The translations under genes were made by a program, and so were the position numbers. Positions 4,180 through 24,889 of a DNA stretch of 64,000 nucleotides are shown here, one piece after another; the stretch's first letter is position 1, and each line of letters opens with the position of its first letter. The notes beneath the pieces are model-generated. The model was not told the origin of the DNA, did not search any database, and worked only from the letters and a program-made list of their open reading frames with translations. The stretch is from Bacteroidota bacterium (GTDB lineage Bacteria > Bacteroidota > Bacteroidia > Bacteroidales > VadinHA17). Location: positions 25,271-89,270 of the forward strand of contig JAKPOU010000042.1 of assembly GCA_029547705.1 (NCBI GenBank), read 5' to 3'.

Positions 4180-4285
4180 TAATGCTTATTGTATTATTAA
4201 AGGGATTCGGATAATACTGATACAGAAAAGATCCATGATCAATCCCGTGAGGTAATCTGATTAATATAACGTTGGAAGAACAGGA

Positions 4286-4511
4286 AGAGCCGGCAAGTAT
4301 AATTTGTGCAGGAAATAAGCCGGGGCTTCCTTTATAATTGTCTTCCCGCGGAGAGCGGATTAGAAACTATCTTTTCCGTTATCCGGAGAAAATTCCTGCT
4401 CCCTTATCTGACGAAGAGTTATCAGTTAAATGCCCGATGCCGTGTTCTTATAGCTGTAAATTGTGACTTTGGAGTTTCAATAACAGATACCATTCAGTTC
4501 TGGATATTCAG
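4286..4511. repeat. 226-bp dispersed repeat, copy 1 (degenerate FISUMP-family gene fragment)
   Basis: Near-identical to 7158..7383. This copy carries two in-frame stops on the minus strand, at positions where copy 2 stays open. Confidence 0.9.
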
Positions 4512-4667
4512 TTAAAAAAAATCATTAAATGGCAAATTTTAAGAACCATTTGGAGACCGGGGCAATTGCAGACACAGTAATAAGTAGTATATAGCTTTAT
4601 ATTTGTAGCAGTATTTAAAATATAAATGGAGAAATCAAAAACTTAGATTTACCTGGAGTAACGGGAT

Positions 4668-6916: not shown

Positions 6917-6922
6917 ATTGAT

Positions 6923-9502: not shown

Positions 9503-10216
9503 TCAGGGTAATTTGCCAAAATATACCGCGAAGGGCACTTCAGCATCGGCATCATCCTCATCGTCAATCCCGGGCCGGAAAAGAACAACACAGTTCTCTT
9601 TCCTGTAGCCGGTAACAACTTCTGAGGCCATCAGGGGATCGGCTTCATAGCCAAGCTTCCTGAGTTCGTCAGCAATGACTCCGGCCGTTCTCCCTATAGC
9701 TGAAAAATCTCCTTCAAGCTTCACTATGGTTTCAACCATCTGTCCGTTCACTATCACCTCCTCAACACCTGAATCGCCCGGGATATTCCAGGGGAAATCC
9801 TCCAGAAGCGGCTGACTGAAACTGATATCGTCCATCAGTGCAAAAAGGGAAGACAGGTCGCATGGATCTTCCTCAGCCGGGATGCAGGCTGTAAACACCA
9901 TTTTATTATCACCCAGTACCAGGGTATCGTTTTTCAGTGCAAGGGGATATGTCAGGGTTTCTTCATCATCATAGGCCAGTGTCAGCCGGTTCTTCTCCAG
10001 TTTCCACGTTCCGGAACGGTACATACGCTGCCCGGTGTAGAAGAAGAATACCTGTCTTTCATCTTCAATATTGAACTCCAGCATTTCTGCCTCGCAGCCT
10101 TTGATGCATTCCCATATTCCTTCAAGGTCTTCATTGCCTGGCTGAGGTGTTTTCTTCCCGCAGGCAGGAGTCAGCAGTATCACTGCCAACATAATCGCAA
10201 TTTTTCTCATTGTCAT
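9503..10216 (-). CDS. Hypothetical lipoprotein (lipocalin-like N-terminal region)
   Basis: Lipobox LLTPAC. GTWKLEKNRLTL-type strands follow. The acidic C-terminal domain is of unknown function. Confidence 0.6.
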   Translation of the reverse strand: MTMRKIAIMLAVILLTPACGKKTPQPGNEDLEGIWECIKGCEAEMLEFNIEDERQVFFFYTGQRMYRSGTWKLEKNRLTLAYDDEETLTYPLALKNDTLVLGDNKMVFTACIPAEEDPCDLSSLFALMDDISFSQPLLEDFPWNIPGDSGVEEVIVNGQMVETIVKLEGDFSAIGRTAGVIADELRKLGYEADPLMASEVVTGYRKENCVVLFRPGIDDEDDADAEVPFAVYFGKLP

Positions 10217-10725
10217 GGTTTGTCAGTTTGATAATATTCCGGCAGCTCTGCAGTCTTCGCAATATCACCCGCACCACATGTCATTTCCGTCGCTGTTTCA
10301 TTATGAAGTTTTATCACCGGTTTCAGGCTGATAATTATTCTAACGAAACATACATCTGCCCTTGACCGGACACAACCTGCCAGCCTGCTCGTAATAAGCA
10401 ATATGCAGCAAATAATGAAAGCTGACACAAATGACATCAGCACTGCCGGAAGATAACTATTTACATGTGTGAAATTTACGAAAAAATTGCGACCTGTGGC
10501 AGATGTAATAACGGAAATTTTCAGAAACCGCCCTGTTTCGTATCCGTGTTGTCTGTGTTACACGGCTCTTTCGGATGGGCGTTACTGTCTGCTATTCATT
10601 TCTGTCATCCCGCTGTTTAAAGAGATTTTTCTGGCAGCGCCAGGATCTGATCCGCAGATTTTCGTAACTTGGACTGACTAATGATTAGCGGGCAAGGCCC
10701 GGCAAGAATTTTAACAATATACGAT

Positions 10726-11547
10726 ATGAAAGCCGTCTTCTTCTTACATATTGCAGTTATAATGCTGATATCCGCTTCCTGTTCAGGTTATTATGGTCAT
10801 GATATCGACCTGTCTGCCACCTATTCCGGTGCAGTCTGTTCACCCAATTCGTCAGAGATCTATTTCCTCTGCCAGACCCGTGCCTCACAAAAAGGCAAGA
10901 ACCTGTGGTTTATAATGCCGATTGAAGGAAAGACCAGATTTCTCCATAATAATGTGTCCCTCTATTCCTTTGATACTACCGGCATTCGCCTGACCCGTCT
11001 GTTCGATTACGGCAATCTGCCCAATTATCTTTCAAGCTGGAAGGCAGAGATTATACCCCTGAAGGATGGTGTATGTTTCAGCATAAGTCCAAAATTGGGA
11101 GGATGGGATGAGATGGTTTCAAAGGACAGCAATATGGTTTCTGTCAGACAACAATTTGAAGGAATATTTTTTATTGATCGGGACGGAGAGGTAAAGCGCC
11201 TCGACTCGCAGCCTCCGGCGGATGATGTAGTCAAGCCGGAAAAGGGAGTACGTTTTTATGTAGGAAATCTGCCATACTCTGAGTTTGGATTGATACTGCA
11301 GGAGTTCGATCCGGGAACTGAGAAGTATTATCTGAAAACACTGGAGCAGCTTGGTAATACTTCAACTTACCGCAGGGCGGTCATTGAACAGGTATTGGCC
11401 GTGAAGGACAAAAATACTATCAGCAAGGTGTATGACAATATGCTCAGAAACCTCAATGAGATGAAGGAGGGCAGCAAGAAGATGATGAAGGAAATGGACA
11501 TCAAAGACAACCTGGAACAGATACAGGCATTGCTCCAAAGCAAATAA
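10726..11547 (+). CDS. Hypothetical lipoprotein
   Basis: Start chosen at MKAVFFLHIAVIMLISASC (lipobox), which is M16 of ORF 10681..11547. I recognised no domain. Confidence 0.55.
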   Translation: MKAVFFLHIAVIMLISASCSGYYGHDIDLSATYSGAVCSPNSSEIYFLCQTRASQKGKNLWFIMPIEGKTRFLHNNVSLYSFDTTGIRLTRLFDYGNLPNYLSSWKAEIIPLKDGVCFSISPKLGGWDEMVSKDSNMVSVRQQFEGIFFIDRDGEVKRLDSQPPADDVVKPEKGVRFYVGNLPYSEFGLILQEFDPGTEKYYLKTLEQLGNTSTYRRAVIEQVLAVKDKNTISKVYDNMLRNLNEMKEGSKKMMKEMDIKDNLEQIQALLQSK

Positions 11548-11632
11548 ATTTCACCTTCTGCAAAATAACCCGGTTACGCTAATAAGCCTTGTGGTGAAAG
11601 GTGCCGGAGGAATAATCGTTACTGCTTACTGC

Positions 11633-12112
11633 CTATTGTTCACTGGACAGCCCGAAAGTGATACCCAGGAAATGTGTTTCAGCTTGAAAGTCATTGTACA
11701 CATGAGCAAAATGCAAAAGCATATCTCTTTTTTCCCAGTAAACGTCAAACACATTTTTCCACCCGGATGCCTCCAGTTTTTCAAAGACTTCTTTATAGAA
11801 CTTGTCAACGGCCTCCTTACTTTCTGAGCTTACTTCAGGAATCTCATACTGAATATAAGCGCCCTTGAAGTAGCCGCTTCCTTTTTCTATCTTTTCAAAT
11901 TCTGCCCCGGGGTATATGGGGAAGCCGATTTCTTTCAGTTTGGCCTCCAGCACTTCCCTGTCGAGGTAATTGGCTTTCGCTTCCGTCTGTACCTTCTTTT
12001 CATCCGTGCTGCCTGTCTTTTGCGTTGCACCTTCTTTTTGCGTTGTTCCGCCGCCGCATGATGCCAGGATAATGGCAGCGGCTGTCAGACAGGTAAAAAA
12101 TAATCTCTTCAT
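11633..12112 (-). CDS. Hypothetical lipoprotein
   Basis: MKRLFFTCLTAAAIILASC lipobox followed by a Gly/Thr/Lys linker. 159 aa. Confidence 0.6.
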   Translation of the reverse strand: MKRLFFTCLTAAAIILASCGGGTTQKEGATQKTGSTDEKKVQTEAKANYLDREVLEAKLKEIGFPIYPGAEFEKIEKGSGYFKGAYIQYEIPEVSSESKEAVDKFYKEVFEKLEASGWKNVFDVYWEKRDMLLHFAHVYNDFQAETHFLGITFGLSSEQ

Positions 12113-12451
12113 TTTTGATGTTTAGTTTGGTTCATATAAAATTGTTGCATGTTTTTCGCTGATTGAAGAACATCCGGTAATGGGCGAATACATTGCACAT
12201 TCACTGAAAATAAATTAAATGACTTATTCGTTTTCTCATAATTCAAAAATTAATAATACAACTCACCGGTTTCTGTATAATGAGGAGTTATCTACAAATT
12301 GTCGTGTGATATCTCCATTGTCGTAGTTTCATTTGCCTTTTTCCATTTCTTTTCCGGGCAGATACAGTATGTGATTGTTTGTACTGCCGGTTATTGTTTT
12401 ACCGGACTGAGGCAACAGCTGACACCAGTCCCGGGGAAGTAAAGGTCGGGG

Positions 12452-12910
12452 TCAGGAAGTCTGCCCGCTTACTCTTTTGAGAACTATTGATGGAACGAAT
12501 TCACCTACTGCTTCCGGAAGGGATGCCAGCCTAAGGGTCATTTCATCAACATCACTCGTGGTACTGAACTCCACATTGAACATGATCGGATCACCGGAAG
12601 TTTCCAGTCCTAATAATCTGATTATTGCATCGCTGTCCAGCGTGAGCATCCTGGTTTTATTATCTACCTCGAATTGTCCTTTGATTGAACCATTCTTGTG
12701 TCCCGGGATCATTTCGATGCTCAGTTCATATTCATTGTTATCCTGGAATGTTATATGGATTATACCTTTCTGGTTTTCAGAGAAGGTTAATTTATCAGTA
12801 GCCCAGTCACCCAGGATAAATTCGGAGAGTCCTGTTTCCTCTTTCTTGCAGCCATTCAGCAAAAGAACAGAAAGAGCCATTGAGATAAACAATATCTTTT
12901 TCATAATCAA
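12452..12910 (-). CDS. Hypothetical lipoprotein (lipocalin-like)
   Basis: MIMKKILFISMALSVLLLNGC lipobox. The antisense ORF 12477..12920 has no such signal. Confidence 0.6.
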   Translation of the reverse strand: MIMKKILFISMALSVLLLNGCKKEETGLSEFILGDWATDKLTFSENQKGIIHITFQDNNEYELSIEMIPGHKNGSIKGQFEVDNKTRMLTLDSDAIIRLLGLETSGDPIMFNVEFSTTSDVDEMTLRLASLPEAVGEFVPSIVLKRVSGQTS

Positions 12911-13559
12911 TGTGTTTTAAATTGATAAATAATAATTTTCAATATTAAATCCGGAATTATATATTTTGATTTTTCAAAAACCACTGAAAGTGTCTGATGA
13001 TTGTAATGCAATAATCTGATATTAACCATTTAAAAGATTTTACATTGATCCTTTTACGTTGAACGCTAATATTTGTTGCCTTGATTTTAAGACTGTTCCC
13101 TGACCAAAACGGCAAACGGATTTTGCAAGCATGCTTACCATTTTGAAAGATGATCCCTGTTTCCGGATTTATCTTAAATGCTTAATACTAAATTTAATTA
13201 AAACGTTTGACCTTAAGTATATTTAATCGTTTCCTAAAATATTAAAATGATCTTTTCCTCTGAATTATTATAAAGCAGAAAGCCTTTTCCATTGCAGATA
13301 ATGACATATGAAACCCTCTATTTTTAGTCGAATGAAGGATCATTACCTTATATCGGCCAATAGGGGGATTTGTTCTCGGAATTTTTATATCCTAAAGAAG
13401 AAACTATATCAAAAAATCTTTATATTTACCTCGATTGTGATAGTAACCGTTGAATACGTTCTGAGCTAAGCTTGCAATCTTAAACCCAAATTGTGAGGAC
13501 ATACTAATTAGTAAAGAGACTACTATTATTTATAATTAATAACTTAACTATCTTTTACT

Positions 13560-16532
13560 ATGAAAAAACTTTTTCTTGTACTTTTTTTAATTATAATCAG
13601 CTCTGGTTTCCTCGTGGCACAAAGAGAAATAACCGGAAAGGTAAATGATGAAGATCAGAATCCTTTGTCTGGTGTATCTGTAGTTGTTGCAGGAACTAAT
13701 GTCGGAACTCTTACTGATATCAATGGTCAATTCAGCCTTCAGATTCCACCTAACGCCACAACACTCGTTTTTACCTTTATTGGGATGAAACGAGTGGAGA
13801 TGGAAATTGGAAATCTGACGGTTTTCAATGTAACAATGTCCTTTGATGTGGGGTTACTTGATGAGGTAATAGTTATCGGCTATGGAACAATAAAGAAAAG
13901 TGATTTAACCGGTTCAATATCTTCAGTTAAAGGTGATAATATCAGATTGCAGGCTGTGGGTAATGTAGTTCAATCACTTAGCGGTGTGGCTGCAGGTGTA
14001 CAGGTGCTTCAAACATCAGGACAACCAGGTAGTGGGACCAATGTAGTTATAAGGGGAGGCAACTCACTTTTGGGTGATAACAATCCTCTTTATATTGTTG
14101 ACGGAACCCCAATGATTACCGATCTGAGTATGTTTAATACCAATGATATAGAATCAATTGAGGTTCTCAAAGACGCATCCGGTACTGCAATTTACGGCTC
14201 ACGAGGTGCTAATGGTGTGGTTCTGGTGACTACTAAGAAGGGTAAATCAGGAGGACTAAGTGTTGAATACAGTGGATATTACGGAGTACAGCAGGTGACA
14301 AAAAAGATTGAAATGCTTAATGCAAAAGAATTCGCATCGCTGGTAAATGAAAGATACCTAAATGATGGTTTAAGTCCTTATTTTTCATCATCGGAAATTG
14401 AATCATTCGGAGAAGGATTCAATTGGCAGGATGCTGTATTTAAAGTTGCACCTATTCAAAACCATTCCCTTAGATTGTCGGGTGGATCTGATAAGACCAC
14501 TTATAGTATATCTGGTAGCTATTTCGGACAGGATGGAATTATTATCAACTCAGGATACAATAACTTACAGTTCAGATCAAGGATTGATACTAAAATAACC
14601 AAAGACTGGTCGTTCGCGGTTAATACAGTTTTAAGCAGGCGAATGAATAATAATATTCATAGTAACAATACTGAAAGAGGTATGGGGGTATTGAGTGCTG
14701 CCGTGGGTTGTCCTCCAACCATTCCGGCATATGATGCCAATGGAGATTATAGTTTTATGATGGCTTATCCTTTCAGTCCAGAAGGCTTGGAAAATCCTAT
14801 TGCCATGGCCTATGAACGCATAATGAAAAATCATTCCAATGATTTAAGTCTGAACCTTTCTACTAGTGCAAATATTTTTAAGGATCTCACATTATATTCG
14901 TCGATAGGAATTCAATATGATAATGCGAGAGAAGACTATTATTCTGGAACCAAGCTTTTTGCATCAAGAACGGGAATGGCAAATATAGGTTATTCGGAAC
15001 TAATGAACATTTTGAATGAAAATACACTGACCTATAAGAAAGTGATAGGAACAAACCACGATCTGACCATTTTGGGTGGGGTTACCGCACAAAAGAATAC
15101 TGCACAGAATTTAAGAGCTGGTTCAACAGGTTTTTTAACAGATATACTTCAGAACTACAGCCTTCAGTCTGGAGAAAACTTCCAGACACCCACCTCAGAC
15201 TATAGTGATTGGACCCTATTGTCCTATATAAGCAGGATAAACTATTCCTTTAAAAGTAAATATCTTTTTACCGCCAGTATTAGAGCCGACGGTTCCTCAC
15301 GCTTTGGATCAAATAATAGATGGGGTTATTTTCCTTCATTCGCAGTAGGCTGGAACATTAATGAAGAAAATTTCCTGAAAGGCAATCCAACATTAAACAT
15401 TCTTAAATTGAGAATGAGCTGGGGACAGACTGGTAATACATCTATTACACCCTACCAATCACTTTCTGTTCTGTCAAGTATTCAGACCGTTTTTGATAAA
15501 AATCTTAATATTGGTTATGCGCCTGGCAATATTAAGCCTAATCCCGATCTTAAGTGGGAAACAACAGCTCAGTCCAATATTGGTTTGGATGTGGAATTAT
15601 TTAATAATAGACTCAGCCTTTCATCTGATTTTTATTATAAGAAAACAAGAGATTTGTTGGTTAATATTCCGGTATTTCCGTCAACTGGTTATGCTTCCCA
15701 AACAACTAATCTGGGGAATATCGAAAATAAAGGCCTCGAAATGGCATTGAACTGGAGAGTTTTTGATCAGAAGTTTTTATGGAACTTGGGATCAACTTTT
15801 ACTTTAAATCGCAATAAGGTGCTGAGCCTTCCTCAAGGTGGCGATATTTTTGGTACAGAAATTGGCTGGGTGCTTCCTGCCATGAACCTGGTTAGGGAAG
15901 GTTATCCGGTTGGCGTATTTTATGGATATATAGAGGATGGATTAACAGAAGATGGAAATATAAAATACCTTGATTTACACCCTGATGGAACGATCAATAC
16001 GCTGGACAGGACAATTATTGGCGATCCAAACCCAAAATTTATTTTTGGGATTAACTCTGATATGTCCTATAAAAATTTTGGACTGACAGTATTAATAAAT
16101 GGTGTTCAGGGGAATGATATTCTGAATTATAACCTGTCAAATATTGGAGACAGTTTCAGTTACGGAATTAATCAAACCAAAGACATCATAGGGAATTATT
16201 GGACTAGTCAGAATCCAAATCCTAATGCAAAATATCCTCGAATAAGCAAAAATACAAGATTTCTTGGCTCTGATAGATTTGTAGAGGATGGCTCCTACGT
16301 CCAGGTTAAGAATATAAAATTGTCCTACTCTTTGTCCGGAGATAAATTTAAGGCATCCAGGATTCATAACTCCCAGGTTTATATTAGCCTGCAAAATATA
16401 ATTACTTTAACAAAGTATACTTTTTATACACCAATACAGAATACCCTAGGAACTGGTATCAATAAAGGAATTGATAAATGGGGTTATCCTGACGCAAGGT
16501 TATTTATGTTAGGAGTCATGGTTAATTTATAA
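13560..16532 (+). CDS. susC: SusC/RagA-family TonB-dependent outer-membrane transporter
   Basis: 990 aa with a signal peptide. It has a carboxypeptidase-regulatory-like N-domain (ITGKVNDEDQNPLSGVSVVVAGTNVGTLTDINGQFSL), a TonB-box/plug region (DEVIVIGYGT.., NPLYIVDG) and a C-terminal barrel. Confidence 0.95.
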   Translation: MKKLFLVLFLIIISSGFLVAQREITGKVNDEDQNPLSGVSVVVAGTNVGTLTDINGQFSLQIPPNATTLVFTFIGMKRVEMEIGNLTVFNVTMSFDVGLLDEVIVIGYGTIKKSDLTGSISSVKGDNIRLQAVGNVVQSLSGVAAGVQVLQTSGQPGSGTNVVIRGGNSLLGDNNPLYIVDGTPMITDLSMFNTNDIESIEVLKDASGTAIYGSRGANGVVLVTTKKGKSGGLSVEYSGYYGVQQVTKKIEMLNAKEFASLVNERYLNDGLSPYFSSSEIESFGEGFNWQDAVFKVAPIQNHSLRLSGGSDKTTYSISGSYFGQDGIIINSGYNNLQFRSRIDTKITKDWSFAVNTVLSRRMNNNIHSNNTERGMGVLSAAVGCPPTIPAYDANGDYSFMMAYPFSPEGLENPIAMAYERIMKNHSNDLSLNLSTSANIFKDLTLYSSIGIQYDNAREDYYSGTKLFASRTGMANIGYSELMNILNENTLTYKKVIGTNHDLTILGGVTAQKNTAQNLRAGSTGFLTDILQNYSLQSGENFQTPTSDYSDWTLLSYISRINYSFKSKYLFTASIRADGSSRFGSNNRWGYFPSFAVGWNINEENFLKGNPTLNILKLRMSWGQTGNTSITPYQSLSVLSSIQTVFDKNLNIGYAPGNIKPNPDLKWETTAQSNIGLDVELFNNRLSLSSDFYYKKTRDLLVNIPVFPSTGYASQTTNLGNIENKGLEMALNWRVFDQKFLWNLGSTFTLNRNKVLSLPQGGDIFGTEIGWVLPAMNLVREGYPVGVFYGYIEDGLTEDGNIKYLDLHPDGTINTLDRTIIGDPNPKFIFGINSDMSYKNFGLTVLINGVQGNDILNYNLSNIGDSFSYGINQTKDIIGNYWTSQNPNPNAKYPRISKNTRFLGSDRFVEDGSYVQVKNIKLSYSLSGDKFKASRIHNSQVYISLQNIITLTKYTFYTPIQNTLGTGINKGIDKWGYPDARLFMLGVMVNL

Positions 16533-16553
16533 TCTATTATTAATATAATTAAT

Positions 16554-18011
16554 ATGAAAATCATGAATAAAAATATAATAATACTATTACTGGTTATCAT
16601 AGGATCATCGTGTACCGACTTTCTTGATGAGAAACCCAAAGATCGTCTGACAGAAATTAATTTTTATGAAACTTTTGCAGATGCTCAGGCAGCTGTAAAC
16701 GCAATCTACGGACCAATCAGGAATAATTACAGAGATACTTATTTTTTGATGCTTGATTTGCTGGCTGATTATCTTGAGGGACGTGGTTCCACATCCCCGG
16801 TAAGCGAGTATAAAGGTTTTGATGTGACTAACATAAATCGTGCGGCTGCTGCATGGAGATATCTTTACCAAACGATCAGGAATGCAAATATTGCCATAGA
16901 AAGAATTCCGAAAATTGAAGGTATGAAAGAATCGGATAAAAATGCATTAATAGCAGAGGCCTCTTTTTTGCGTGCATTCTCATATTACTTTCTTGTAAGG
17001 CTTTGGGGAGCAGTTCCGTTATATTTAGATCTTTCTCCGGTAGATCTAAGCAGAAGACCAGTTTCAGAAGTTTATCAGGCAATCATCAATGACTTAAAAA
17101 CAGGAGAAACATATTTACCTGACACACCATCTGAATTTGGACATCCCACTAAATGGTCTGCCAAATCATTGCTCGCTGAGGTATACCTTACAATTAATGA
17201 ATTTGATCTGTCGAAAGACAAGGCAGGAGAAGTTATAACCTCAGGTCATTTTAACCTTGTTGATGTAAATGTCGCAAATGACTTTAATAATGTTTACGGT
17301 CCTGAGGCAAATGGTACTCCCGAAGAAATATTTTATATAAAATTCAATCATACGGCCGGCTGGACAATGCCTCATAAATATTTGTGGGACAGGGATCAGT
17401 TTTCGCCTTTTGGGAGTTATGTTGTTTATTGTGTCCCTGGGCCATTTTTTACAAATTGGGATGATAATGATTTAAGAAAAAAATTTAACATATTCAGCCA
17501 ATATATAAACAGGTTCACCGGTGAAATAGAAACTTTACCTTCTTCAACACCTATTTTGGTTTCAAAATACAGAGATAATAATGCACCTTCGAATAGTAAC
17601 TATGGAAATGATGCCCCGGTATTGAGATTTGCAGATGTTCTTCTCATATATGCTGAAGCCGCACCATTAGCTGAAAACCAGATATCGGCTCAGGCACTTG
17701 AATGTCTGAACCGCGTCAAACGCAGAGCCTACGGCTATCCTAATAGAAGTGCTTCTGCAGTGGACTATTCTGCTGATGGATTATCAGTGGAAGAGTTCAG
17801 AGATATCGTTATTCAGGAAAGGGCATATGAATTATTTATGGAAGGAGGAGACCGTTGGTTTGATTTACGAAGGATCGGCAGGGAGAAAGAAATAATTTTG
17901 GCAAACACAGGAAAAACACTTGTTGATAAACATATTCTTTGGCCTATCCCACAAGCAGAAATTGATAATAACCCCGATATTAATCAGTCAGATCAAAATC
18001 CAGGTTATTAA
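16554..18011 (+). CDS. susD: SusD/RagB-family nutrient-binding lipoprotein
   Basis: Lipobox IIGSSC followed by TDFLDEKPKD. The motifs RAFSYYFLVRLWGAVPL and ERAYELFMEGGDRWFDLRR are present. It begins 21 nt after susC. Confidence 0.95.
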   Translation: MKIMNKNIIILLLVIIGSSCTDFLDEKPKDRLTEINFYETFADAQAAVNAIYGPIRNNYRDTYFLMLDLLADYLEGRGSTSPVSEYKGFDVTNINRAAAAWRYLYQTIRNANIAIERIPKIEGMKESDKNALIAEASFLRAFSYYFLVRLWGAVPLYLDLSPVDLSRRPVSEVYQAIINDLKTGETYLPDTPSEFGHPTKWSAKSLLAEVYLTINEFDLSKDKAGEVITSGHFNLVDVNVANDFNNVYGPEANGTPEEIFYIKFNHTAGWTMPHKYLWDRDQFSPFGSYVVYCVPGPFFTNWDDNDLRKKFNIFSQYINRFTGEIETLPSSTPILVSKYRDNNAPSNSNYGNDAPVLRFADVLLIYAEAAPLAENQISAQALECLNRVKRRAYGYPNRSASAVDYSADGLSVEEFRDIVIQERAYELFMEGGDRWFDLRRIGREKEIILANTGKTLVDKHILWPIPQAEIDNNPDINQSDQNPGY

Positions 18012-18152
18012 TTGTTTGGGTTTACATCTTATAAATAATGTTCTACTTGAATTGTAATAAATTAATATTTAGGAAAATTAAATCAGTTGAGGAATAAATT
18101 TTTCCTCATTGAGGGATAATTAATATAATACTTTAAACCAAAATTAATTAGT

Positions 18153-19361
18153 ATGAAAAAGAGTGTTTTTTTTGAATTGCTATTTTTAACTTCTTTAATA
18201 ATAACCGCGGGTTGTGGTAATCAAACTAGTTACAGAGGGAACAATGTCGATGGGGAAATAATTACTGGAGCCGATCAAACGGCTGAATATGTACCCTATC
18301 TAAAAGGTAAAAATGTTGCAATGGCAATAAATAATTCCTCTACGATTGGGAATGAATTAAGTCTTGACAGTTTATTATCACTTGGAATTAATATAAAAAA
18401 AGTTTTCACTCCCGAACATGGATTGAGGGGAGATAACGTTTATGACAGTATTGATTCACGGACTGGCCTGCCCACAGTTTCATTGTTCGGAGCTAAGAAT
18501 AAACCAACAAAAGAAGATCTGGAAGGAATTGATGTAGTAATTTTTGATAAACAAGATGTAGGTACACGCTTTTACACCTATCTGGCCACACTTCATTATG
18601 TGATGGAGGCATGTGCTGAGAATAACGTGGAAGTGATAGTGCTGGACAGGCCCAATCCAAATGATTCCTATGTTGATGGTCCGGTACTTGAAGAACAATT
18701 CAAATCTTTTGTGGGCTTAAATCCCGTTCCTATAGTCCATGGAATGACATTTGGTGAATATGCCCAAATGCTTAATGGGGAAGGATGGCTGGCAAACGGT
18801 GTTCAGTGTAAACTTAAAGTTATAACAATATTGAATTATGAGCATGGGAAACCCTATATCCTTCCAATTAAACCATCTCCCAATCTTAATACTCAACAAT
18901 CTATTTTGTTATATCCTTCTCTTTGCTGGTTTGAAGGCACGGTAATCAGTGAAGGAAGAGGCACCTGTATGCCTTTTCAGATTTTAGGACATCCGGCTTT
19001 AAAGGGTAAGTATACTTTCAGTTTTACCCCTGTATCAATTCCAACAATGAGTACTAATCCGAAACATCTTGGTGAGACCTGCTACGGTTTAGATTTAAGA
19101 AATTATGATACAGATAAATTCAGGAAAACAGGAAAGTTGAATCTTGATTGGTTATTGGAATTGTATAGTGCTTATCCAGATAAAGAGAATTTTTTCAGAC
19201 AGGGACGGGACGGAAGCTATTCATTTGATCGTTTAGTTGGAACTGACCAGTTGAGGTTGCAGATTATTAAAGGTTTGACTGAACGAGAAATTCGCAATAG
19301 CTGGGAACCAAAATTATCAGAGTTTAAGAAAATCAGAGAAAAGTATCTGATATATAAGTGA
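18153..19361 (+). CDS. DUF1343 / NamZ-type exo-beta-N-acetylmuramidase family lipoprotein (paralog 1)
   Basis: 402 aa with lipobox ITAGC. Contains ITGADQ..YLKGKNVAMAINNSS, FDKQDVGTRFYTYLATLHYVMEA, VLDRPNP and VPIVHGMTFGEYA. Confidence 0.8.
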   Translation: MKKSVFFELLFLTSLIITAGCGNQTSYRGNNVDGEIITGADQTAEYVPYLKGKNVAMAINNSSTIGNELSLDSLLSLGINIKKVFTPEHGLRGDNVYDSIDSRTGLPTVSLFGAKNKPTKEDLEGIDVVIFDKQDVGTRFYTYLATLHYVMEACAENNVEVIVLDRPNPNDSYVDGPVLEEQFKSFVGLNPVPIVHGMTFGEYAQMLNGEGWLANGVQCKLKVITILNYEHGKPYILPIKPSPNLNTQQSILLYPSLCWFEGTVISEGRGTCMPFQILGHPALKGKYTFSFTPVSIPTMSTNPKHLGETCYGLDLRNYDTDKFRKTGKLNLDWLLELYSAYPDKENFFRQGRDGSYSFDRLVGTDQLRLQIIKGLTEREIRNSWEPKLSEFKKIREKYLIYK

Positions 19362-19444
19362 TAATTATTCAGCTTGAACAATTATCAGGAATAAGGATCT
19401 TTAAGATGAATTTCCTAAGTTTATAATTATCTAAGTTTTTGAAG

Positions 19445-19490
19445 ACCAGGCTGAGGAACCCTATGCAAGAATATAAAATCTCAGCCTGGT
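19445..19490 (+). terminator. Perfect 11-bp stem hairpin between the two DUF1343 genes
   Basis: accaggctgag (19445-19455) pairs with ctcagcctggt (19480-19490) across a 24-nt loop. There is no clear U-tract, so its terminator function is uncertain. Confidence 0.35.
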
Positions 19491-19656
19491 TGAAAATAAT
19501 GCCGGGAGCATTATGACTGATGTTCATATTTTATTGTCGTTAGGCAAAACAGCTTATTCAATCGTACTACAGAATCCACTTAATAGGTACTAATTGAATT
19601 TTTATGCAAAACCTGAAGCTTTTTTATTAATAGTTTGATCATTATATTTTATTGGT

Positions 19657-20967
19657 ATGAAAAATTACTCTGTATTAAATGCAAAGAGATATTCAATCCT
19701 GGTCTTGTTTTTGAGTTTTTTATGTATCAGCCAGAATAATGCTATGACTTATTTTACGGATAGTCCGGATTTCTTTTTCAGTTTTGGCCCACAAGTTGTT
19801 GTTGGGGCAGATCGTTTGTTTTCTGAATATAATTCTTTGATTGATGGTAAAAGGGTTGCATTGGTGGCCAATCACACTGGTCGTTTATCCAATGGTACTC
19901 ACTTGGCCGATGCATTGTTTCAGTATCCGAATGTTGAACTGAAAGCTTTATTCGGCATGAATTTTAATATCCGTTCAAATGATTATTCACTTCCGGTTGA
20001 TGAAGACAGAACTATTGATCCTCAGACAGGCGTTAGGAAATTCAACTTGTATGGAACGCAGCACAAACCAACAAATGACATGCTGGAAGATGTGGATATT
20101 ATCATTGTAGATATACAAGAAGTGGGAGCTCGTTTTTATGAACATGTAAATATACTTGGGTTTGTAATGGAAGCAGCTGCCGAGAATAATATTGAGGTGG
20201 TTGTGCTTGACCGTCCCAATCCAATAACCGGCTTGAAGATGGAAGGCTTTATAACAGACGATGATTATCTCTTCGGTTTTGGTGCATATGCAAAAATACC
20301 TGTCATTCATGGAATGACTATGGGTGAAATTGCCAAATTGTATAATGGGGAGGGGATGCTGAGAAATGGGATTCGTGCCAGGCTTCATGTTGTGGAGATG
20401 AAAGGCTGGGAAAGGCATATGTGGTTTGATCAAACAGGCTTAAACTGGATTAAGCCTTCGCCTAATCTGCCAACACCTGAGACTATGCTTGTTTATACAG
20501 GAACTTGTTTGTTCGAGGGTGTTAATATTTCCTGCGGCAGAGGTACACCTGAACCATTCAAGTATATTGGCGCCCCATGGATTGACAATGGGAAGGTATT
20601 AAATATACTGAATGAACTGGGCCTTAAAGGTGTGGAGTTCGATAGAATTTCGTTCACACCAGTAAAGATGCCTTTCCATGGTCAGGAGCCATTTCTATCT
20701 GGTGAGCTATGTCAAGGTATATATGTTCGGGTGACTGACAGGAATGCTTTTGAACCATATAAAACCGGCATTGCACTTTTATGGGCGATTAACAAATGCC
20801 ATCCTGAGATGATTCAATGGAATATCAAGACTCTGGATCGTTTGGTTGGAACCCGTAGATTAATCTCTATGATTCAAAAAGAAACACAGCCGTCAGAAAT
20901 ATTTTTTAGCTGGGAGAATGAATTATCTGAATTCAAAAAATTAAGCAAAGAATATTTTCTTTATTGA
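19657..20967 (+). CDS. DUF1343 / NamZ-type family protein (paralog 2)
   Basis: 436 aa with a signal peptide. The same motif set appears in diverged form (VDIQEVGARFYEHVNILGFVMEA, VLDRPNP, IPVIHGMTMGEIA). Confidence 0.8.
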   Translation: MKNYSVLNAKRYSILVLFLSFLCISQNNAMTYFTDSPDFFFSFGPQVVVGADRLFSEYNSLIDGKRVALVANHTGRLSNGTHLADALFQYPNVELKALFGMNFNIRSNDYSLPVDEDRTIDPQTGVRKFNLYGTQHKPTNDMLEDVDIIIVDIQEVGARFYEHVNILGFVMEAAAENNIEVVVLDRPNPITGLKMEGFITDDDYLFGFGAYAKIPVIHGMTMGEIAKLYNGEGMLRNGIRARLHVVEMKGWERHMWFDQTGLNWIKPSPNLPTPETMLVYTGTCLFEGVNISCGRGTPEPFKYIGAPWIDNGKVLNILNELGLKGVEFDRISFTPVKMPFHGQEPFLSGELCQGIYVRVTDRNAFEPYKTGIALLWAINKCHPEMIQWNIKTLDRLVGTRRLISMIQKETQPSEIFFSWENELSEFKKLSKEYFLY

Positions 20968-21204
20968 AAGGGCTATAAAGATCTGCCTGTTGATGGCCTT
21001 TATATTTGTATTTATAACAATCGGTTCAATACAAATTGAATCCCTAAATCTGACTTGAGACATGCTTAATTACCCTGTCTTTATTTTTATATTAAATAAA
21101 TCAGTAGGCCAGAATTCAATGAACTAGATTGACAAGAGCTGTTGTTTTTTGGTTTTAAAGATTGTTAGAGTTATCTACGGTCTGTTCCTTTTACGATATA
21201 TGCT

Positions 21205-21212
21205 TATCTTTG
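21205..21212 (+). promoter_or_regulatory. Candidate Bacteroidota -7 promoter box (TAnnTTTG) upstream of mgtC
   Basis: tatctttg lies about 105 nt upstream of the mgtC ATG. This is a motif match only. Confidence 0.3.
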
Positions 21213-21316
21213 CATGCTGTGCTGTACAGTCTCAACCGGCTGTTTCAGGATTCTACTGTAAAAAACAGAAAACGGCAATACTGGCTTTATACAAAGCGTT
21301 TTAAAGATTAATATAA

Positions 21317-21976
21317 ATGATCAGCGGAAGTGAAATATTGATTCGTTTATTACTGGCCTCTTTGTTCGGAGCACTCATTGGCCTGGAAAGGGAAAGGAAA
21401 AACTGGACGGCGGGACTAAGAACCCATATGATGGTTTGTGTTGCTTCCAGTTTGATAATGATTGTTTCTTCTTTCGGGTTTTCCGATATACTGGGGACAG
21501 AGCATGTTGCACTTGATCCTTCAAGAGTTGCCGCCCAGGTGGTATCAGGTATAGGTTTCATTGGCGCCGGCACCATATTATTTTCAAGGCAGGGAGTGGT
21601 TCACGGTCTTACCACGGCAGCCGGATTATGGGCTGTTGCCGCTATCGGTCTTGCAACAGGCGGCGGACTTTATTTTGCTGCCGGAGCCACCACAATCATA
21701 GCATTGATCATCCTATGGGCCATAAAACCGTTTGAACGTGTTTTTTCCAGGAAATTCAACAAGAAATCCCTGAAAATTGTCACAGGAAATGCTAATCTTA
21801 TCAAAAACCTCCTTGAAGACGATGATCTGAAGGTTGATACTTTTTCAATTGATAAAAGCGAAGAAGGAATTGTATTCCATATGACTTTTGATAAGGCGGA
21901 TCTGAAAATCCTGGAAGCTCTGGTAAATGAACTTAAAAGCGATCCTGCTATAAAGGAGATCATCTGGGGAGAATGA
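21317..21976 (+). CDS. mgtC: MgtC/SapB-family membrane protein
   Basis: LLLASLFGALIGLERERKNWTAGLRTHMMVCVASSL.. plus GIGFIGAGTIL, followed by a soluble C-terminal ACT-like domain. Confidence 0.85.
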   Translation: MISGSEILIRLLLASLFGALIGLERERKNWTAGLRTHMMVCVASSLIMIVSSFGFSDILGTEHVALDPSRVAAQVVSGIGFIGAGTILFSRQGVVHGLTTAAGLWAVAAIGLATGGGLYFAAGATTIIALIILWAIKPFERVFSRKFNKKSLKIVTGNANLIKNLLEDDDLKVDTFSIDKSEEGIVFHMTFDKADLKILEALVNELKSDPAIKEIIWGE

Positions 21977-22334: not shown

Positions 22335-23579
22335 ATGAAAAACAATGTCCTGATATTTTTTGCAACAGTACTGATCTTTTCTCTTGCCGGCTCATGCACA
22401 AAGAGTGACGGCAATGAAGAAATCAATCTCTCACCAAAGAGCATTACTCTGACAGCTGTGGCTCCACAGGCTATTCAGAGCAGTAATGAATTCGGAATAG
22501 AACTTTTTACCAGGGTTTCCGGAACGGAAAACAAGAATCTGATGATTTCTCCGCTAAGTGCAAGCACCGCGCTTACCATGCTTCTCAACGGATGCGGGGG
22601 AGATACCTATAACCAGCTTCAGGGGACACTGAAATACCCTGACGGAATGACCATCAGTGATATCAATGAAGCTTACGGGAGCCTTGTTGAACAGCTTCTG
22701 AATGCTGATCCGAAAGTGAAGCTTGCACTGGCAAATGCAATCTTCTATCGCAGGGACTTCAGTGTTAAATCACCATTCCTTGGGATAATGGGCAAGGATT
22801 ATAAGGCAACTGTTGAAGATCTTGATTTTGCCGCACCATCAGCTCTTAAGAGAATAAACAAGTGGGCAAGTGACAATACCAACGGAAAAATTCCGCAGGT
22901 ACTGGATGATATCAGTTCCGATGCAGTGATGTTCATTATGAATGCCCTCTACTTCAATGGTGACTGGAGTTATCAGTTTGACAAGTCACTGACGCAGAAG
23001 CGGCCTTTTTATCCGGATGCAGGCAGTGCGGTTGATGTAAATACCATGACCGGAGAAGTGGGCACAAGGGTGGTTTACGGCAATGGCTTCAAGGCAATTG
23101 AACTGCCTTACGGAAGGACTAATTTCACAATGGTTGTGATAGTACCTGAGGGTACACTGAGGGATTTTTATCCTTCATTCACGGCACAGAACTGGGAGAA
23201 ACTGACGTCTGATCTCGACAGGGCAGGTGAGTTTGAGAAACTTACGGTTTTCATGCCCAAGTTCAGCTTTGAATATGAAAAATATCTCAACGACCAGTTG
23301 CAGGGCATGGGAATGCTTGATGCCTTTGATCCCTTCCTGGCTGACCTGTCGGGTATTTCGGATGCGTCGATCTTTGTCAGTTTTGTGAAGCAGAACACCT
23401 TTGTTGATGTTGATGAAAAAGGTACTGAGGCTGCGGCGGTCACTACGATAGGCATCAAAGTGACCAGTGTAGGTCCGCCAAGTAAGTTCGTTATTGACAA
23501 GTCCTTTGTCTTTGCCATACGCGAACGGACAACCAATACCCTTCTGTTCATCGGACAGGTGTTGAATCCGGCGGGATAA
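22335..23579 (+). CDS. Serpin-family protease inhibitor, lipoprotein (copy 1)
   Basis: Lipobox SLAGSC. Serpin hinge EKGTEAAAVTTIG, followed by FVIDKSFVFAIRE and the shutter/breach motifs NALYFNGDW and FMPKFSFE. Confidence 0.9.
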   Translation: MKNNVLIFFATVLIFSLAGSCTKSDGNEEINLSPKSITLTAVAPQAIQSSNEFGIELFTRVSGTENKNLMISPLSASTALTMLLNGCGGDTYNQLQGTLKYPDGMTISDINEAYGSLVEQLLNADPKVKLALANAIFYRRDFSVKSPFLGIMGKDYKATVEDLDFAAPSALKRINKWASDNTNGKIPQVLDDISSDAVMFIMNALYFNGDWSYQFDKSLTQKRPFYPDAGSAVDVNTMTGEVGTRVVYGNGFKAIELPYGRTNFTMVVIVPEGTLRDFYPSFTAQNWEKLTSDLDRAGEFEKLTVFMPKFSFEYEKYLNDQLQGMGMLDAFDPFLADLSGISDASIFVSFVKQNTFVDVDEKGTEAAAVTTIGIKVTSVGPPSKFVIDKSFVFAIRERTTNTLLFIGQVLNPAG

Positions 23580-23638
23580 GGCACGTAATGAGAAATTGTG
23601 AACCCGGAATTCAGTTGAATTATAAAATAATAGTGATT

Positions 23639-24889
23639 ATGAAAAGAATGAGTCTGATATTTACGGCAGGAGTACTGATTTTTTCTCTTGCCGGCTCATG
23701 TACAAAGAGTGACGGCAATGAAGAAATCAATCTCTCGCCAAAGAGCATTACTCTGACAGCAGTGGCTCCACAGGCTATTCAGAGCAGTAATGAATTCGGA
23801 ATAGAACTTTTTACCAGGGTTTCCGAAGCGGAAAACAAGAATCTGATGATTTCTCCGCTAAGTGCAAGTACCGCACTCACCATGCTTCTCAACGGATGCG
23901 GGGGAGATACCTATTCCCAGCTTCAGGGGACACTGAAATACCCTGACGGGATGACCATCAGTGATATCAATGAAGCTTACGGGAGCCTTGTTGAACAGCT
24001 TCTGAATGCTGATCCGAAAGTGAAGCTTGCACTGGCAAATGCAATTTTCTATCGCAGGGGTTTCAGTGTAAAATCACCATTTCTTGGCATAATGGGCAAG
24101 GATTATAAGGCCACTGTTGAAGATCTTGATTTTGCCGCACCATCAGCTCTTAACACAATAAACAAATGGGCAAGCGACAATACCAAGGGAAAAATTCCGC
24201 AGGTACTGAATAGAATCGATCCCGATGCAGTGATGTTCATTATGAATGCCCTCTACTTCAATGGCGACTGGAGTTATCAGTTTGACAAGTCACTGACGGA
24301 GAAGCGGCCTTTCTATCCGGACGCAGGCAGTGCGGTTGATGTAAATACCATGACCGGAGAAGTAGGCTCAAGGGTGGTTTACGGCAATGGCTTCAAGGCA
24401 ATTGAACTTCCTTACGGAAGGACGAATTTCACCATGGTTGTGATAGTACCTGAGGGTACACTGAGGGATTTCTATCCTTCATTCACGGCACAGAGCTGGG
24501 AAGAACTGACATCCGATCTTGACGGAATCAGTGATTTTGGCAAAGTGAGGGTTTTCATGCCTAAGTTCAGCTTTGAATATGAAAAATATCTCAACGACCA
24601 GTTGCAGGGCATGGGAATGCTTGATGCCTTTGATCCCCTCCTGGCTGACCTGTCGGGTATTTCGGATGAATCGATCTTTGTCAGCTTTGTGAAGCAGAAC
24701 ACCTTTGTTGATGTTGATGAGAAGGGTACCGAAGCAGCTGCGGTAACAACAATAGGAATCAGTATATTAACTTCCGTTCAGCCTCAGCCTCAGCCGTTCA
24801 TTATTGACAAGTCATTTGTCTTTGCCATACGCGAACGGACAACCAACGCTCTTTTATTTATTGGTCAGGTTATGAATCCGGAACAGTAA
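23639..24889 (+). CDS. Serpin-family protease inhibitor, lipoprotein (copy 2)
   Basis: Start chosen at MKRMSLIFTAGVLIFSLAGSC, which is M18 of ORF 23588... About 95% nucleotide identity with copy 1 over most of the body, but with a different reactive-centre loop. Confidence 0.9.
   Translation: MKRMSLIFTAGVLIFSLAGSCTKSDGNEEINLSPKSITLTAVAPQAIQSSNEFGIELFTRVSEAENKNLMISPLSASTALTMLLNGCGGDTYSQLQGTLKYPDGMTISDINEAYGSLVEQLLNADPKVKLALANAIFYRRGFSVKSPFLGIMGKDYKATVEDLDFAAPSALNTINKWASDNTKGKIPQVLNRIDPDAVMFIMNALYFNGDWSYQFDKSLTEKRPFYPDAGSAVDVNTMTGEVGSRVVYGNGFKAIELPYGRTNFTMVVIVPEGTLRDFYPSFTAQSWEELTSDLDGISDFGKVRVFMPKFSFEYEKYLNDQLQGMGMLDAFDPLLADLSGISDESIFVSFVKQNTFVDVDEKGTEAAAVTTIGISILTSVQPQPQPFIIDKSFVFAIRERTTNALLFIGQVMNPEQ

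What the first reader, a model, noticed from the sequence alone, without database searches (positions are those of the whole stretch)
13560..20967. SusC/SusD locus whose only enzymes are two divergent DUF1343/NamZ paralogs: a possible peptidoglycan/MurNAc-scavenging PUL
Polysaccharide utilisation loci normally pair SusC/SusD with glycoside hydrolases and a regulator. Here the cargo is two DUF1343 proteins, one a lipoprotein (ITAGC) and one with an ordinary signal peptide, and nothing else.

DUF1343 includes NamZ, the exo-beta-N-acetylmuramidase characterised in Bacillus subtilis and in the MurNAc-auxotrophic Tannerella forsythia. An outer-membrane importer coupled to two exo-muramidases suggests capture and trimming of peptidoglycan fragments from neighbouring cells.

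No HTCS, SusR or ECF/anti-sigma regulator lies within the 650 bp upstream, and this SusC lacks an N-terminal STN signalling extension.
Basis: partly seen in the sequence, partly recalled or inferred. Interest (0 to 1): 0.6.

Follow-up and report, generated by a model that had tools for sequence, protein, structure and literature searches.

The report
Peptidoglycan-sugar uptake locus with two NamZ enzymes
A sludge bacterium carries an acquired four-gene outer-membrane uptake locus whose only enzymes are two different NamZ-family (GH171) muramidase homologues, and related loci elsewhere point to scavenging of cell-wall sugar chains from other bacteria, a kind of uptake system not yet studied experimentally.

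Summary
SusC (13560-16532, no STN domain), SusD (16554-18011), lipoprotein NamZ-a (18153-19361) and signal-peptide NamZ-b (19657-20967) lie co-directionally, with no other credible gene and no regulator.

NamZ-a belongs to the 4JJA/BfNamZ2 clade, which the literature links to the MurNAc-releasing TfNamZ2. NamZ-b is not NamZ1-type. It defines a separate, uncharacterised GH171 clade in which the residue aligned to the proposed catalytic Glu is variable (Asn here).

The pairing is not chance. In metagenome contigs and one same-order genome, NamZ-a/NamZ-b relatives sit beside at least five mutually distant SusC/SusD lineages. Their neighbours often include MurQ, a sodium:solute symporter, DeoR, a GH3-beta-lactamase-fold (AmiE-like) fusion, NlpC/P60 or DUF6259.

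The block is an AT-rich island (GC 0.369 against 0.452 for the genome) and was not found in about 1000 sampled genomes of the phylum. An earlier first-reader note on this same stretch also flagged the island.

The host has murA and murB, so it is not a MurNAc auxotroph. A large peptidoglycan-recycling cluster elsewhere (AmgK/MurU-like, AmpG-like, NamZ1-type, GH3-amidase) could take the products.

The locus occurs in activated-sludge and wastewater metagenomes and in RNA libraries.

The most likely function is import and periplasmic trimming of peptide-free MurNAc-containing glycan fragments. The substrate is inferred, not shown.

The parts
12950..21250 (.). AT-rich compositional island that holds the whole locus
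   Evidence: GC of 13560-20967 is 0.369 against a genome value of 0.452 (sd 0.027 for 7.4-kb windows); it lies in the lowest 1.8% of windows. GC3 of all four genes is 0.29-0.36.
12921..13559 (+). Upstream non-coding region (639 bp, GC 0.29); promoter not identified
   Evidence: No credible ORF. No Bacteroidetes TAnnTTTG motif. Sigma-70-like matches are below shuffle expectation.
13560..16532 (+). SusC/RagA-family TonB-dependent transporter, 990 aa, no STN signalling domain
   Evidence: TIGR04056 870 bits, SusC signature TIGR04057, CarboxypepD_reg_2 and Plug domains. Orthologues of 57% and 51% identity lie next to NamZ-b relatives in L057 and L094.
16554..18011 (+). SusD-family surface lipoprotein, 485 aa
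   Evidence: SusD-like_3 and SusD_RagB. Lipobox Cys followed by TDFLDE. 60% and 52% identical to the SusD of L057 and L094.
18083..18112 (+). Small hairpin in the SusD-NamZ-a gap
   Evidence: Fold energy -12.2 kcal/mol, z -2.8, no U tract. An RNA-library contig spans 17873-18466.
18153..19361 (+). NamZ-a: GH171 lipoprotein of the NamZ2/4JJA type; predicted exo-beta-N-acetylmuramidase, probably facing the periplasm
   Evidence: NamZ_N and NamZ_C. 4JJA scores 336 bits against 167 bits for 4K05. It falls in the NamZ2-type clade, SH-aLRT 100. It keeps the FTPEHG Glu and the GRGT Arg. There are no acidic residues after the lipid Cys (LES rule from PMC6222051).
19444..19491 (+). Strong hairpin in the 295-bp NamZ-a/NamZ-b gap
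   Evidence: 13-bp stem, -23.9 kcal/mol, z -4.5, no U tract.
19657..20967 (+). NamZ-b: exported GH171 protein of a separate, uncharacterised clade
   Evidence: NamZ_N and NamZ_C. Own clade with SH-aLRT 100. It has the motif FGMNFNIRSNDYS in place of FxPEHGxRG, and the aligned position is H/E/N/G across 29 clade members. Best identity was 38% in 200 same-order genomes, yet many homologues of 55-71% identity exist in the protein database.
20968..21015 (+). Terminator-like hairpin plus U-rich tail directly after the NamZ-b stop codon
   Evidence: Hairpin at 20968-21001 followed by a U-rich run.

Best explanation
This is a minimal polysaccharide utilisation locus, probably acquired horizontally, for MurNAc-containing glycan fragments. 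The most likely cargo is peptide-free peptidoglycan strands and oligosaccharides released from other bacteria in sludge.

Proposed mechanism:
1. Surface SusD binds the fragments and TonB-dependent SusC imports them.
2. In the periplasm, the outer-membrane-anchored NamZ-a removes non-reducing-end MurNAc.
3. Soluble NamZ-b, from a distinct GH171 clade, carries out a complementary cleavage that is not yet known.
4. GlcNAc removal and stem-peptide removal depend on enzymes encoded elsewhere: a GH3-AmiE-like fusion and an Amidase_3 protein on contig C69.
5. MurNAc and disaccharides cross the inner membrane through an SSS symporter or AmpG-like permease. They are then reused through AmgK/MurU-like enzymes or catabolised.

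Shown: gene identities, clade placement, recurrence of the architecture, presence of the downstream pathway, and the compositional island.

Inferred: the substrate, the topology of the enzymes, the division of labour between the two NamZ proteins, and co-transcription.
For: - **Family membership.**
- **NamZ-a placement.** NamZ-a sits in the 4JJA/BfNamZ2 clade. The literature groups that clade with the MurNAc-releasing TfNamZ2 (10.1101/2021.12.02.470905).
- **Same SusC/SusD lineage next to NamZ-b elsewhere.**
  - L094 has the same SusC-SusD-NamZa-NamZb order, plus an ECF sigma factor, FecR and an STN-SusC.
  - L056/L057 have DeoR-NamZb divergent from SusC-SusD.
- **Neighbours of NamZ-a/NamZ-b pairs.**
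  - They are followed by MurQ (TIGR00274, 322 bits) and an SSF symporter in L088/L090. MurQ and SSF also occur in L045.
  - The same-order genome G077 has a GH3 + beta-lactamase-fold fusion, NamZ-a (56%), SusC, SusD and NlpC/P60.
- **Recurrence.** Of 14 loci with NamZ-b at 61% identity or more and at least 5 kb of flank, 9 have a SusC and 8 have a NamZ-a type. At least five mutually distant SusC/SusD lineages are involved.
- **Host pathway.**
  - A NamZ1-type copy (4K05, 515 bits), plus AmgK-, MurU-, AmpG-, NagX- and SpoIID/LytB-like proteins.
  - A GH3-beta-lactamase fusion and an Amidase_3 protein.
- **Habitat and RNA.** The locus is present at 100% of sampled words in activated-sludge and wastewater metagenomes. 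RNA-library contigs from three studies cover all four genes and bridge the SusC/SusD and SusD/NamZ-a junctions.
Against: - No biochemical or genetic test exists for any protein of this locus or its close relatives.
- NamZ-b has Asn at the position aligned to the proposed catalytic Glu, and its clade has no characterised member. Its activity is therefore open.
- The locus has no endo-acting surface enzyme, amidase, GlcNAc-ase or regulator. It cannot process intact peptidoglycan on its own.
- No canonical MurQ reached the cut-off in the host.
- A strong hairpin and a 295-bp gap separate the two NamZ genes, so a single operon is not shown.
- RNA-library contigs cannot exclude DNA carry-over.
Confidence: 0.6

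Rival explanations
1. The locus targets a glycan other than peptidoglycan. Candidates are sludge exopolysaccharides, capsules or O-antigens that carry beta-linked MurNAc-like (lactyl-ether) or other acidic N-acetylhexosamines. NamZ-b, and DUF6259 in relatives, would supply a specificity not yet known in GH171.
For: - NamZ-b is an uncharacterised clade with a variable residue at the proposed catalytic Glu and an invariant clade-specific NDYS insertion.
- Related loci often carry DUF6259 and a 660-aa GH-like protein of unknown function rather than classical peptidoglycan hydrolases.
- Classical peptidoglycan-targeting families are under-represented in PULs (PMC6499787).
Against: - The only demonstrated GH171 activity is on MurNAc glycosides (PMC8054146; 10.1101/2021.12.02.470905).
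- MurQ, the AmiE-like amidase fold and NlpC/P60 in related loci are specific to peptidoglycan or MurNAc metabolism.
- Peptidoglycan is by far the commonest source of MurNAc (general knowledge).
Confidence: 0.2
2. The transporter and the enzymes are not functionally coupled. The NamZ genes serve periplasmic recycling of the cell's own wall turnover products. They merely travelled with, or landed next to, a SusC/SusD pair that imports something else.
For: - NamZ2-type genes are nearly universal in the order as stand-alone genes (184 of 201 genomes).
- NamZ-b homologues of 44-50% identity in 17 phylum genomes have no SusC/SusD neighbour.
- The NamZ-a/NamZ-b gap carries a strong hairpin.
Against: - The host already has resident NamZ1- and NamZ2-type copies for recycling.
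- All four genes share the same atypical composition.
- The SusC/SusD-GH171 link recurs with at least five unrelated SusC/SusD lineages.
Confidence: 0.1
3. The locus is a reduced remnant of a larger PUL that has lost its regulator, DUF6259, MurQ and symporter. It would be poorly regulated or only marginally functional in this host.
For: - Relatives carry DeoR or ECF-sigma/FecR with an STN-SusC, plus DUF6259, MurQ and SSF, none of which is in this locus.
- No DeoR orthologue was found in the host with the L057 query.
- A transposase fragment lies about 9 kb upstream.
Against: - All four ORFs are intact and full length.
- RNA-library contigs cover all four genes.
- The host supplies DUF6259, an SSF symporter and amidase functions elsewhere.
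Confidence: 0.1

Closest known systems
Tannerella forsythia peptidoglycan salvage system (NamZ1/NamZ2, AmpG, MurT, MurK, MurQ; 10.1101/2021.12.02.470905)
   Same: - Exported GH171 enzymes of more than one subgroup act on peptide-free MurNAc glycans.
- The products are taken up by AmpG-type and MurNAc transporters.
- The host's C69 cluster resembles the TfnamZ1 cluster (LytB-like, AmpG-like, NamZ1-type, glycosyltransferases).
   Different: - Here the GH171 genes are joined to a SusC/SusD importer. The paper does not mention SusC, SusD or TonB at all.
- The host has murA and murB, so it is not auxotrophic.
- NamZ-b is neither NamZ1- nor NamZ2-type.
Bacillus subtilis NagZ-AmiE-NamZ muropeptide rescue operon (PMC8054146)
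   Same: - It shares the logic of sequential exo-acting enzymes: GlcNAc-ase, MurNAc-L-Ala amidase and exo-muramidase.
- The same-order genome G077 has a GH3 + beta-lactamase-fold fusion next to a NamZ-a relative.
   Different: - The Bacillus system is Gram-positive and secreted, with no outer-membrane transporter.
- The window locus carries only the GH171 step, in two versions.
Canonical Bacteroidota PULs (Sus paradigm) and the sialic-acid NanO/NanU system (PMC3969230)
   Same: - An adjacent SusC/SusD pair with co-directional glycoside hydrolases.
- The best NCBIfam hit of this SusD is NanU, the SusD-family binder of an acidic amino sugar (95 bits, far below the cut-off).
   Different: - No surface endo-glycanase, no regulator and no STN domain.
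- The cargo enzymes belong to GH171 only.
- Peptidoglycan-targeting families are reported as under-represented in PULs (PMC6499787).

Membership tests
Polysaccharide utilisation locus (PUL) | Adjacent susC-like and susD-like genes | tested here: met
   TIGR04056 at 870 bits, and SusD_RagB/SusD-like_3, 21 bp apart on the same strand.
Polysaccharide utilisation locus (PUL) | Co-directional carbohydrate-active enzymes next to the pair | tested here: met
   Two GH171 genes directly downstream.
Polysaccharide utilisation locus (PUL) | Linked regulator (HTCS, SusR, ECF-sigma/anti-sigma with STN-SusC, or other) | tested here: not met
   No STN domain in SusC, and no regulator family in the flanking ORFs. 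Orthologous loci do have ECF/FecR/STN or DeoR.
Polysaccharide utilisation locus (PUL) | Surface-exposed endo-acting enzyme or extra surface glycan-binding lipoprotein | tested here: not met
   The only lipoprotein enzyme, NamZ-a, has no acidic export motif after the Cys (PMC6222051). There are no other genes.
GH171 / NamZ (DUF1343) | NamZ_N plus NamZ_C domains above the Pfam gathering scores | tested here: met
   NamZ-a 231 and 130 bits; NamZ-b 227 and 168 bits.
GH171 / NamZ (DUF1343) | Full-length similarity to the solved family members 4JJA and 4K05 | tested here: met
   NamZ-a against 4JJA, E 2.6e-99. NamZ-b against 4K05, E 5.6e-68.
GH171 / NamZ (DUF1343) | Proposed catalytic Glu (BsNamZ Glu92) and conserved Arg (Arg279) (PMC8054146) | tested here: inconclusive
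   NamZ-a keeps the FxPEHG Glu and the GRGT Arg. NamZ-b keeps the Arg but has Asn at the aligned Glu position, which is H11/E10/N7/G1 in its clade. The mapping to BsNamZ numbering is inferred by position, because no BsNamZ sequence was available to align.
GH171 / NamZ (DUF1343) | Exo-beta-N-acetylmuramidase activity on peptide-free MurNAc glycosides | not testable with these tools
   Needs an enzyme assay.
NamZ2 subgroup (BfNamZ2/4JJA; grouped with TfNamZ2 in the literature; MurNAc-releasing) | Clusters with the 4JJA-type sequences | tested here: met
   This holds for NamZ-a only. 4JJA scores 336 bits against 167 for 4K05. The clade has SH-aLRT 100 and includes the host's resident 4JJA-type copy.
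NamZ1 subgroup (BfNamZ1/4K05; grouped with TfNamZ1 in the literature; disaccharide-releasing) | Clusters with the 4K05-type sequences | tested here: not met
   NamZ-b scores 233 bits to 4K05, against 515 bits for the host's true NamZ1-type copy. It forms its own clade and is not sister to the NamZ1 type in the quick tree.
MurNAc auxotrophy (Tannerella-like) | Absence of murA and murB | tested here: not met
   murA 436 bits and murB 231 bits, both above the cut-offs.

The most novel reading that the evidence does not exclude
Two linked claims. First, the SusC/SusD lineage of this locus (shared with L057 and L094) would be the first identified outer-membrane importer for peptidoglycan-derived glycans in Bacteroidota. 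Second, NamZ-b would found a new GH171 subfamily whose catalytic arrangement does not use the proposed Glu92 and whose specificity differs from NamZ1 and NamZ2. Possible specificities include modified or anhydro ends, or disaccharide units. Together they would define a dedicated route for feeding on bacterial necromass.
Probability: 0.35. Interest if true: 0.7.

Novelty: new variant of a known kind. Interest (0 to 1): 0.55.

Why it matters
Peptidoglycan is a large pool of carbon and nitrogen in sludge, soils and seawater, and how Bacteroidota take up fragments of it across the outer membrane is not described. The Tannerella salvage paper names inner-membrane carriers and periplasmic enzymes but no outer-membrane importer. 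A large PUL survey found classical peptidoglycan hydrolase families under-represented in PULs. Within the searched library I found no paper on a GH171-containing PUL.

A recurring SusC/SusD-GH171 module gives concrete candidates for that missing step: a transporter lineage, two enzyme types, and DUF6259 as a frequent partner. It also points to a GH171 clade whose chemistry may differ from the characterised enzymes. All of this can be tested with existing substrates.

Tried and rejected
- **Reference-genome searches** found no close NamZ-b or SusD orthologue:
  - 200 genomes of the order;
  - 400 genomes of the phylum;
  - 400 genomes of the class.

  This means 'not found in those sampled', not 'absent'. 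A cluster at 66% identity includes a MAG labelled Bacteroidales, so the donor lineage is open.
- **DNA synteny** with the same-genus genome G125 gave only short pieces of 67-83% identity. The insertion borders could not be defined.
- **Promoters.** The sigma-70 scan gave fewer hits than shuffles. No TAnnTTTG motif lies upstream of susC.
- **MurQ.** A canonical MurQ was not found above the cut-off. Only a 678-aa two-SIS (GKRP-like) protein has MurQ-like segments.
- **Phylogeny.** The careful tree search did not finish, so the quick IQ-TREE tree was used. BsNamZ, TfNamZ1 and TfNamZ2 sequences could not be included because no tool supplied them. Anchoring rests on scores to 4JJA and 4K05.
- **Read coverage.** The stretch 21059-21692, beyond NamZ-b, has no RNA-contig cover. 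This was not used as evidence.
- **High-GC NamZ-b loci** (L059, L085 and others) were inspected only at ORF level and gave no usable context.

Full report
**What is there**

Four co-directional ORFs occupy 13560-20967.
- The first is a SusC/RagA transporter (TIGR04056, 870 bits). It has CarboxypepD_reg and Plug domains and no STN domain.
- The second is a SusD-family lipoprotein.
- The third, NamZ-a (402 aa), and the fourth, NamZ-b (436 aa), both carry NamZ_N and NamZ_C well above the Pfam thresholds.

NamZ-a has the lipobox LIITAGC. NamZ-b has a hydrophobic N-terminus without a canonical lipobox. The two are 37% identical.

The 141-bp and 295-bp gaps and the 639-bp upstream region hold no credible gene. 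The upstream ORFs are small lipoproteins without regulator domains. MgtC and two serpins follow.

**Which NamZ types**

The host genome (3.78 Mb, 70 contigs, 92.9% complete) has five GH171 genes. The table gives their scores against the two solved Bacteroides fragilis structures.

| Copy | 4K05 (BfNamZ1), bits | 4JJA (BfNamZ2), bits | Reading |
|---|---|---|---|
| C69 | 515 | 182 | true NamZ1 type |
| C50 | 175 | 388 | resident NamZ2 type |
| NamZ-a (window) | 167 | 336 | second NamZ2 type |
| C36 (no signal peptide) | 220 | 163 | neither |
| NamZ-b (window) | 233 | 170 | neither |

A quick maximum-likelihood tree of 41 sequences gives four clades, each with SH-aLRT 100:
- the NamZ1 type;
- the NamZ2 type, which contains a sub-clade (support 95) of NamZ-a and its relatives;
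- a signal-less clade;
- the NamZ-b clade.

According to Borisova et al. (10.1101/2021.12.02.470905), BfNamZ2 groups with TfNamZ2, which releases MurNAc. BfNamZ1 groups with TfNamZ1, which releases GlcNAc-MurNAc. Both Tannerella enzymes need MurNAc with a free lactyl carboxylate.

NamZ-a is therefore predicted to be a MurNAc-releasing exo-muramidase. NamZ-b has no characterised relative.

**A peculiarity of NamZ-b**

In the alignment, NamZ-a and the NamZ1 and NamZ2 copies have the motif FxPEHGxRG. Its Glu is, by position, the putative catalytic Glu92 of BsNamZ (PMC8054146). That mapping is an inference, because no BsNamZ sequence was available to align.
- NamZ-b has FGMNFNIRSNDYS there.
- Across 29 members of its clade the aligned position is His 11, Glu 10, Asn 7 and Gly 1.
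- The inserted Arg...Asn-Asp-Tyr-Ser is invariant.
- The GRGT arginine is kept in NamZ-a and NamZ-b but is replaced in the host's NamZ1-type copy (GVGY).

So either Glu92 is not the general catalytic residue, or this clade works differently.

**Is the SusC/SusD link real?**

NamZ-b has many homologues of 55-71% identity in the large protein collection. The named ones come from Flavobacteriaceae, Balneolaceae, Rhodothermaceae, Longimicrobiales and a Bacteroidales MAG.

Eighty metagenome loci were fetched with a NamZ-b alignment and searched with the window's proteins.

| Set of NamZ-b loci | SusC | NamZ-a type | DUF6259 | DeoR | MurQ + SSF |
|---|---|---|---|---|---|
| 14 loci with at least 61% identity and at least 5 kb of flank | 9 | 8 | 5 | 5 | 2 |
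| All 40 loci with at least 5 kb of flank | 12 | 10 | 6 | 5 | 3 |

Individual loci show the following arrangements:

| Locus | Arrangement |
|---|---|
| L094 | Same gene order as the window (SusC 51%, SusD 52%), preceded by an ECF sigma factor, FecR and an STN-bearing SusC |
| L056/L057 | SusC 57% and SusD 60%, divergent from DeoR-NamZb and followed by a 660-aa protein and DUF6259 |
| L046/L051/L055 | An unrelated SusC/SusD, then NamZ-a (64%), DUF6259 and NamZ-b (67%) |
| L088/L090 | NamZa-NamZb-MurQ-SSF; MurQ scores 322 bits, above the TIGR00274 cut-off |
| L045 | NamZ-b, DeoR, SusC, SusD, a signal-less NamZ, SSF and MurQ |
| G077 (same order) | A NamZ-a relative (56%) between a GH3 + beta-lactamase-fold fusion (the Bacillus NagZ/AmiE pair in one protein) and SusC, SusD, a metallophosphoesterase-propeller protein and NlpC/P60-SH3 |

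All-against-all comparison shows at least five mutually distant SusC/SusD lineages in these loci, at 20-35% identity between lineages. Repeated independent recruitment argues strongly for a functional link. The neighbours (MurQ, an AmiE-like amidase fold, NlpC/P60) point to MurNAc and peptidoglycan.

By contrast, homologues of 44-50% identity in 17 genomes of the phylum stand alone or next to GH3-like genes.

**Origin**

The block has GC 0.369 against 0.452 for the genome. That places it in the lowest 1.8% of 7.4-kb windows, and all four genes have low GC3. An earlier first-reader note on this stretch said the same.
- No close SusD orthologue (best 41%) or NamZ-b orthologue (best 38%) was found in 200 sampled genomes of the order, including one of the same genus.
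- None was found in 400 genomes of the phylum (best 48%) or in 400 of the class.
- A truncated DDE transposase lies about 9 kb upstream.

Horizontal acquisition of the four genes as a unit is the simplest reading. The donor is unknown.

**Host context**

murA and murB are present above their cut-offs, so the organism is not a MurNAc auxotroph. Contig C69 carries a large wall-recycling region. It encodes:
- a two-SIS MurQ-like protein and an SSS symporter;
- MurU-like, AmgK-like and NagX-like proteins;
- an L-Ala-D/L-Glu epimerase fold protein and an NlpC/P60-SH3 protein;
- the NamZ1-type enzyme and a NagB-like fusion;
- an AmpG-family permease and a SpoIID/LytB protein;
- a glycosyltransferase, an Amidase_3 protein and a GH3-beta-lactamase fusion.

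Several of these hits are below the curated cut-offs, so they are best-family assignments only. DUF6259 and a close SSF homologue are encoded elsewhere. The host can therefore supply the GlcNAc-ase, amidase, inner-membrane transport and salvage steps that the locus lacks.

**Topology and transcription (inferred)**
- SusD has acidic residues after its lipid Cys. NamZ-a has none for twelve residues, which by the Bacteroides export-signal rule predicts a periplasm-facing lipoprotein (PMC6222051).
- With no surface enzyme, the system would import ready-made fragments.
- A strong hairpin without a U tract lies between the two NamZ genes. A hairpin with a U-rich tail follows NamZ-b.

**Habitat and RNA evidence**
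- The locus is held at 100% of sampled words by activated-sludge, wastewater and soil-labelled metagenomes.
- Contigs from RNA libraries of three studies match all four genes at 99-100% identity.
- Those contigs bridge SusC/SusD and the SusD-NamZ-a gap.
- Contigs cannot prove a single transcript or exclude DNA carry-over.

**Literature**

Within the searched library I found no paper describing a GH171-containing PUL, and none that mentions DUF6259. Lapebie et al. report that the peptidoglycan-targeting families GH23/24/25/73 are under-represented in PULs, though present in a few (PMC6499787). The Tannerella paper does not mention SusC, SusD or TonB.

**Verdict**

This is a new variant of a known kind of system: a PUL whose cargo is GH171 only. 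Comparative evidence for MurNAc-containing, probably peptidoglycan-derived, substrates is good. There is also an additional open point, the uncharacterised NamZ-b clade. The substrate and mechanism remain inferences, with about 0.6 confidence.

Noticed in passing
L046:7347-9662, L057:1-2166, L090:6127-8418; host genome C50:147535-149850 (L126:850-3165): DUF6259 proteins (720-770 aa, lipoprotein-like N-termini, weak GHL6 hit) recur inside GH171 PULs of three different SusC/SusD lineages, twice with a 660-aa GH-like partner. No paper in the library mentions DUF6259. It is a candidate glycanase for the same substrate.
   Followed up: partly
host genome C69:6544-37368 (L012, L013, L137): A large peptidoglycan-recycling region. 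It includes a 678-aa two-SIS (GKRP-like) protein with MurQ-like segments in place of a canonical MurQ. It also encodes a 773-aa NagB-like fusion and a 975-aa FAD-oxidase/4Fe-4S protein, possibly for D-lactate.
   Followed up: partly
L129 (G077:C6:19500-39499), 566-16598, minus strand: A genome of the same order has what looks like a fuller muropeptide PUL. It runs GT2, DUF4922, GH3 + beta-lactamase-fold fusion, NamZ-a type, SusC, SusD, metallophosphoesterase-PQQ propeller and NlpC/P60-SH3. The propeller protein also follows the NamZ-a relative in G061 (L131).
   Followed up: partly
window 13046-13075 and 21183-21212: An imperfect 30-nt direct repeat (77% identity) brackets the AT-rich island. 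It could be chance, related promoter elements or an insertion scar.
   Followed up: no
window 3376-4155: A truncated DDE transposase (DDE_Tnp_1_4, profile positions 97-356 of 435) lies in a second low-GC stretch (2001-6000).
   Followed up: no
window 22335-24889: Two tandem full-length serpin genes (414 and 433 aa), each with an N-terminal extension, sit directly after MgtC. Bacterial serpins are uncommon.
   Followed up: no
window 4668-5501 and 7451-8902: Two minus-strand proteins carry type IX secretion C-terminal sorting domains. In one of them the domain is internal (residues 127-199) and precedes a Fib_succ_major domain, which may indicate a start-codon or fusion problem.
   Followed up: no
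window 12917-12934 and 13240-13258: A 4557-nt, depth-71 contig from two oligo-dT RNA libraries of one study touches only these two short spots, with long unmatched stretches around them. This is unexplained; it may be a shared short repeat from another organism.
   Followed up: no
host genome C36:163123-164298 (L003:997-2172); L042:425-1612; L045:10556-11740: A signal-less, presumably cytoplasmic, GH171 clade has Gln at the position aligned to the proposed catalytic Glu in the host's C36 copy. In L042 and L045 a member sits directly after SusC/SusD.
   Followed up: partly
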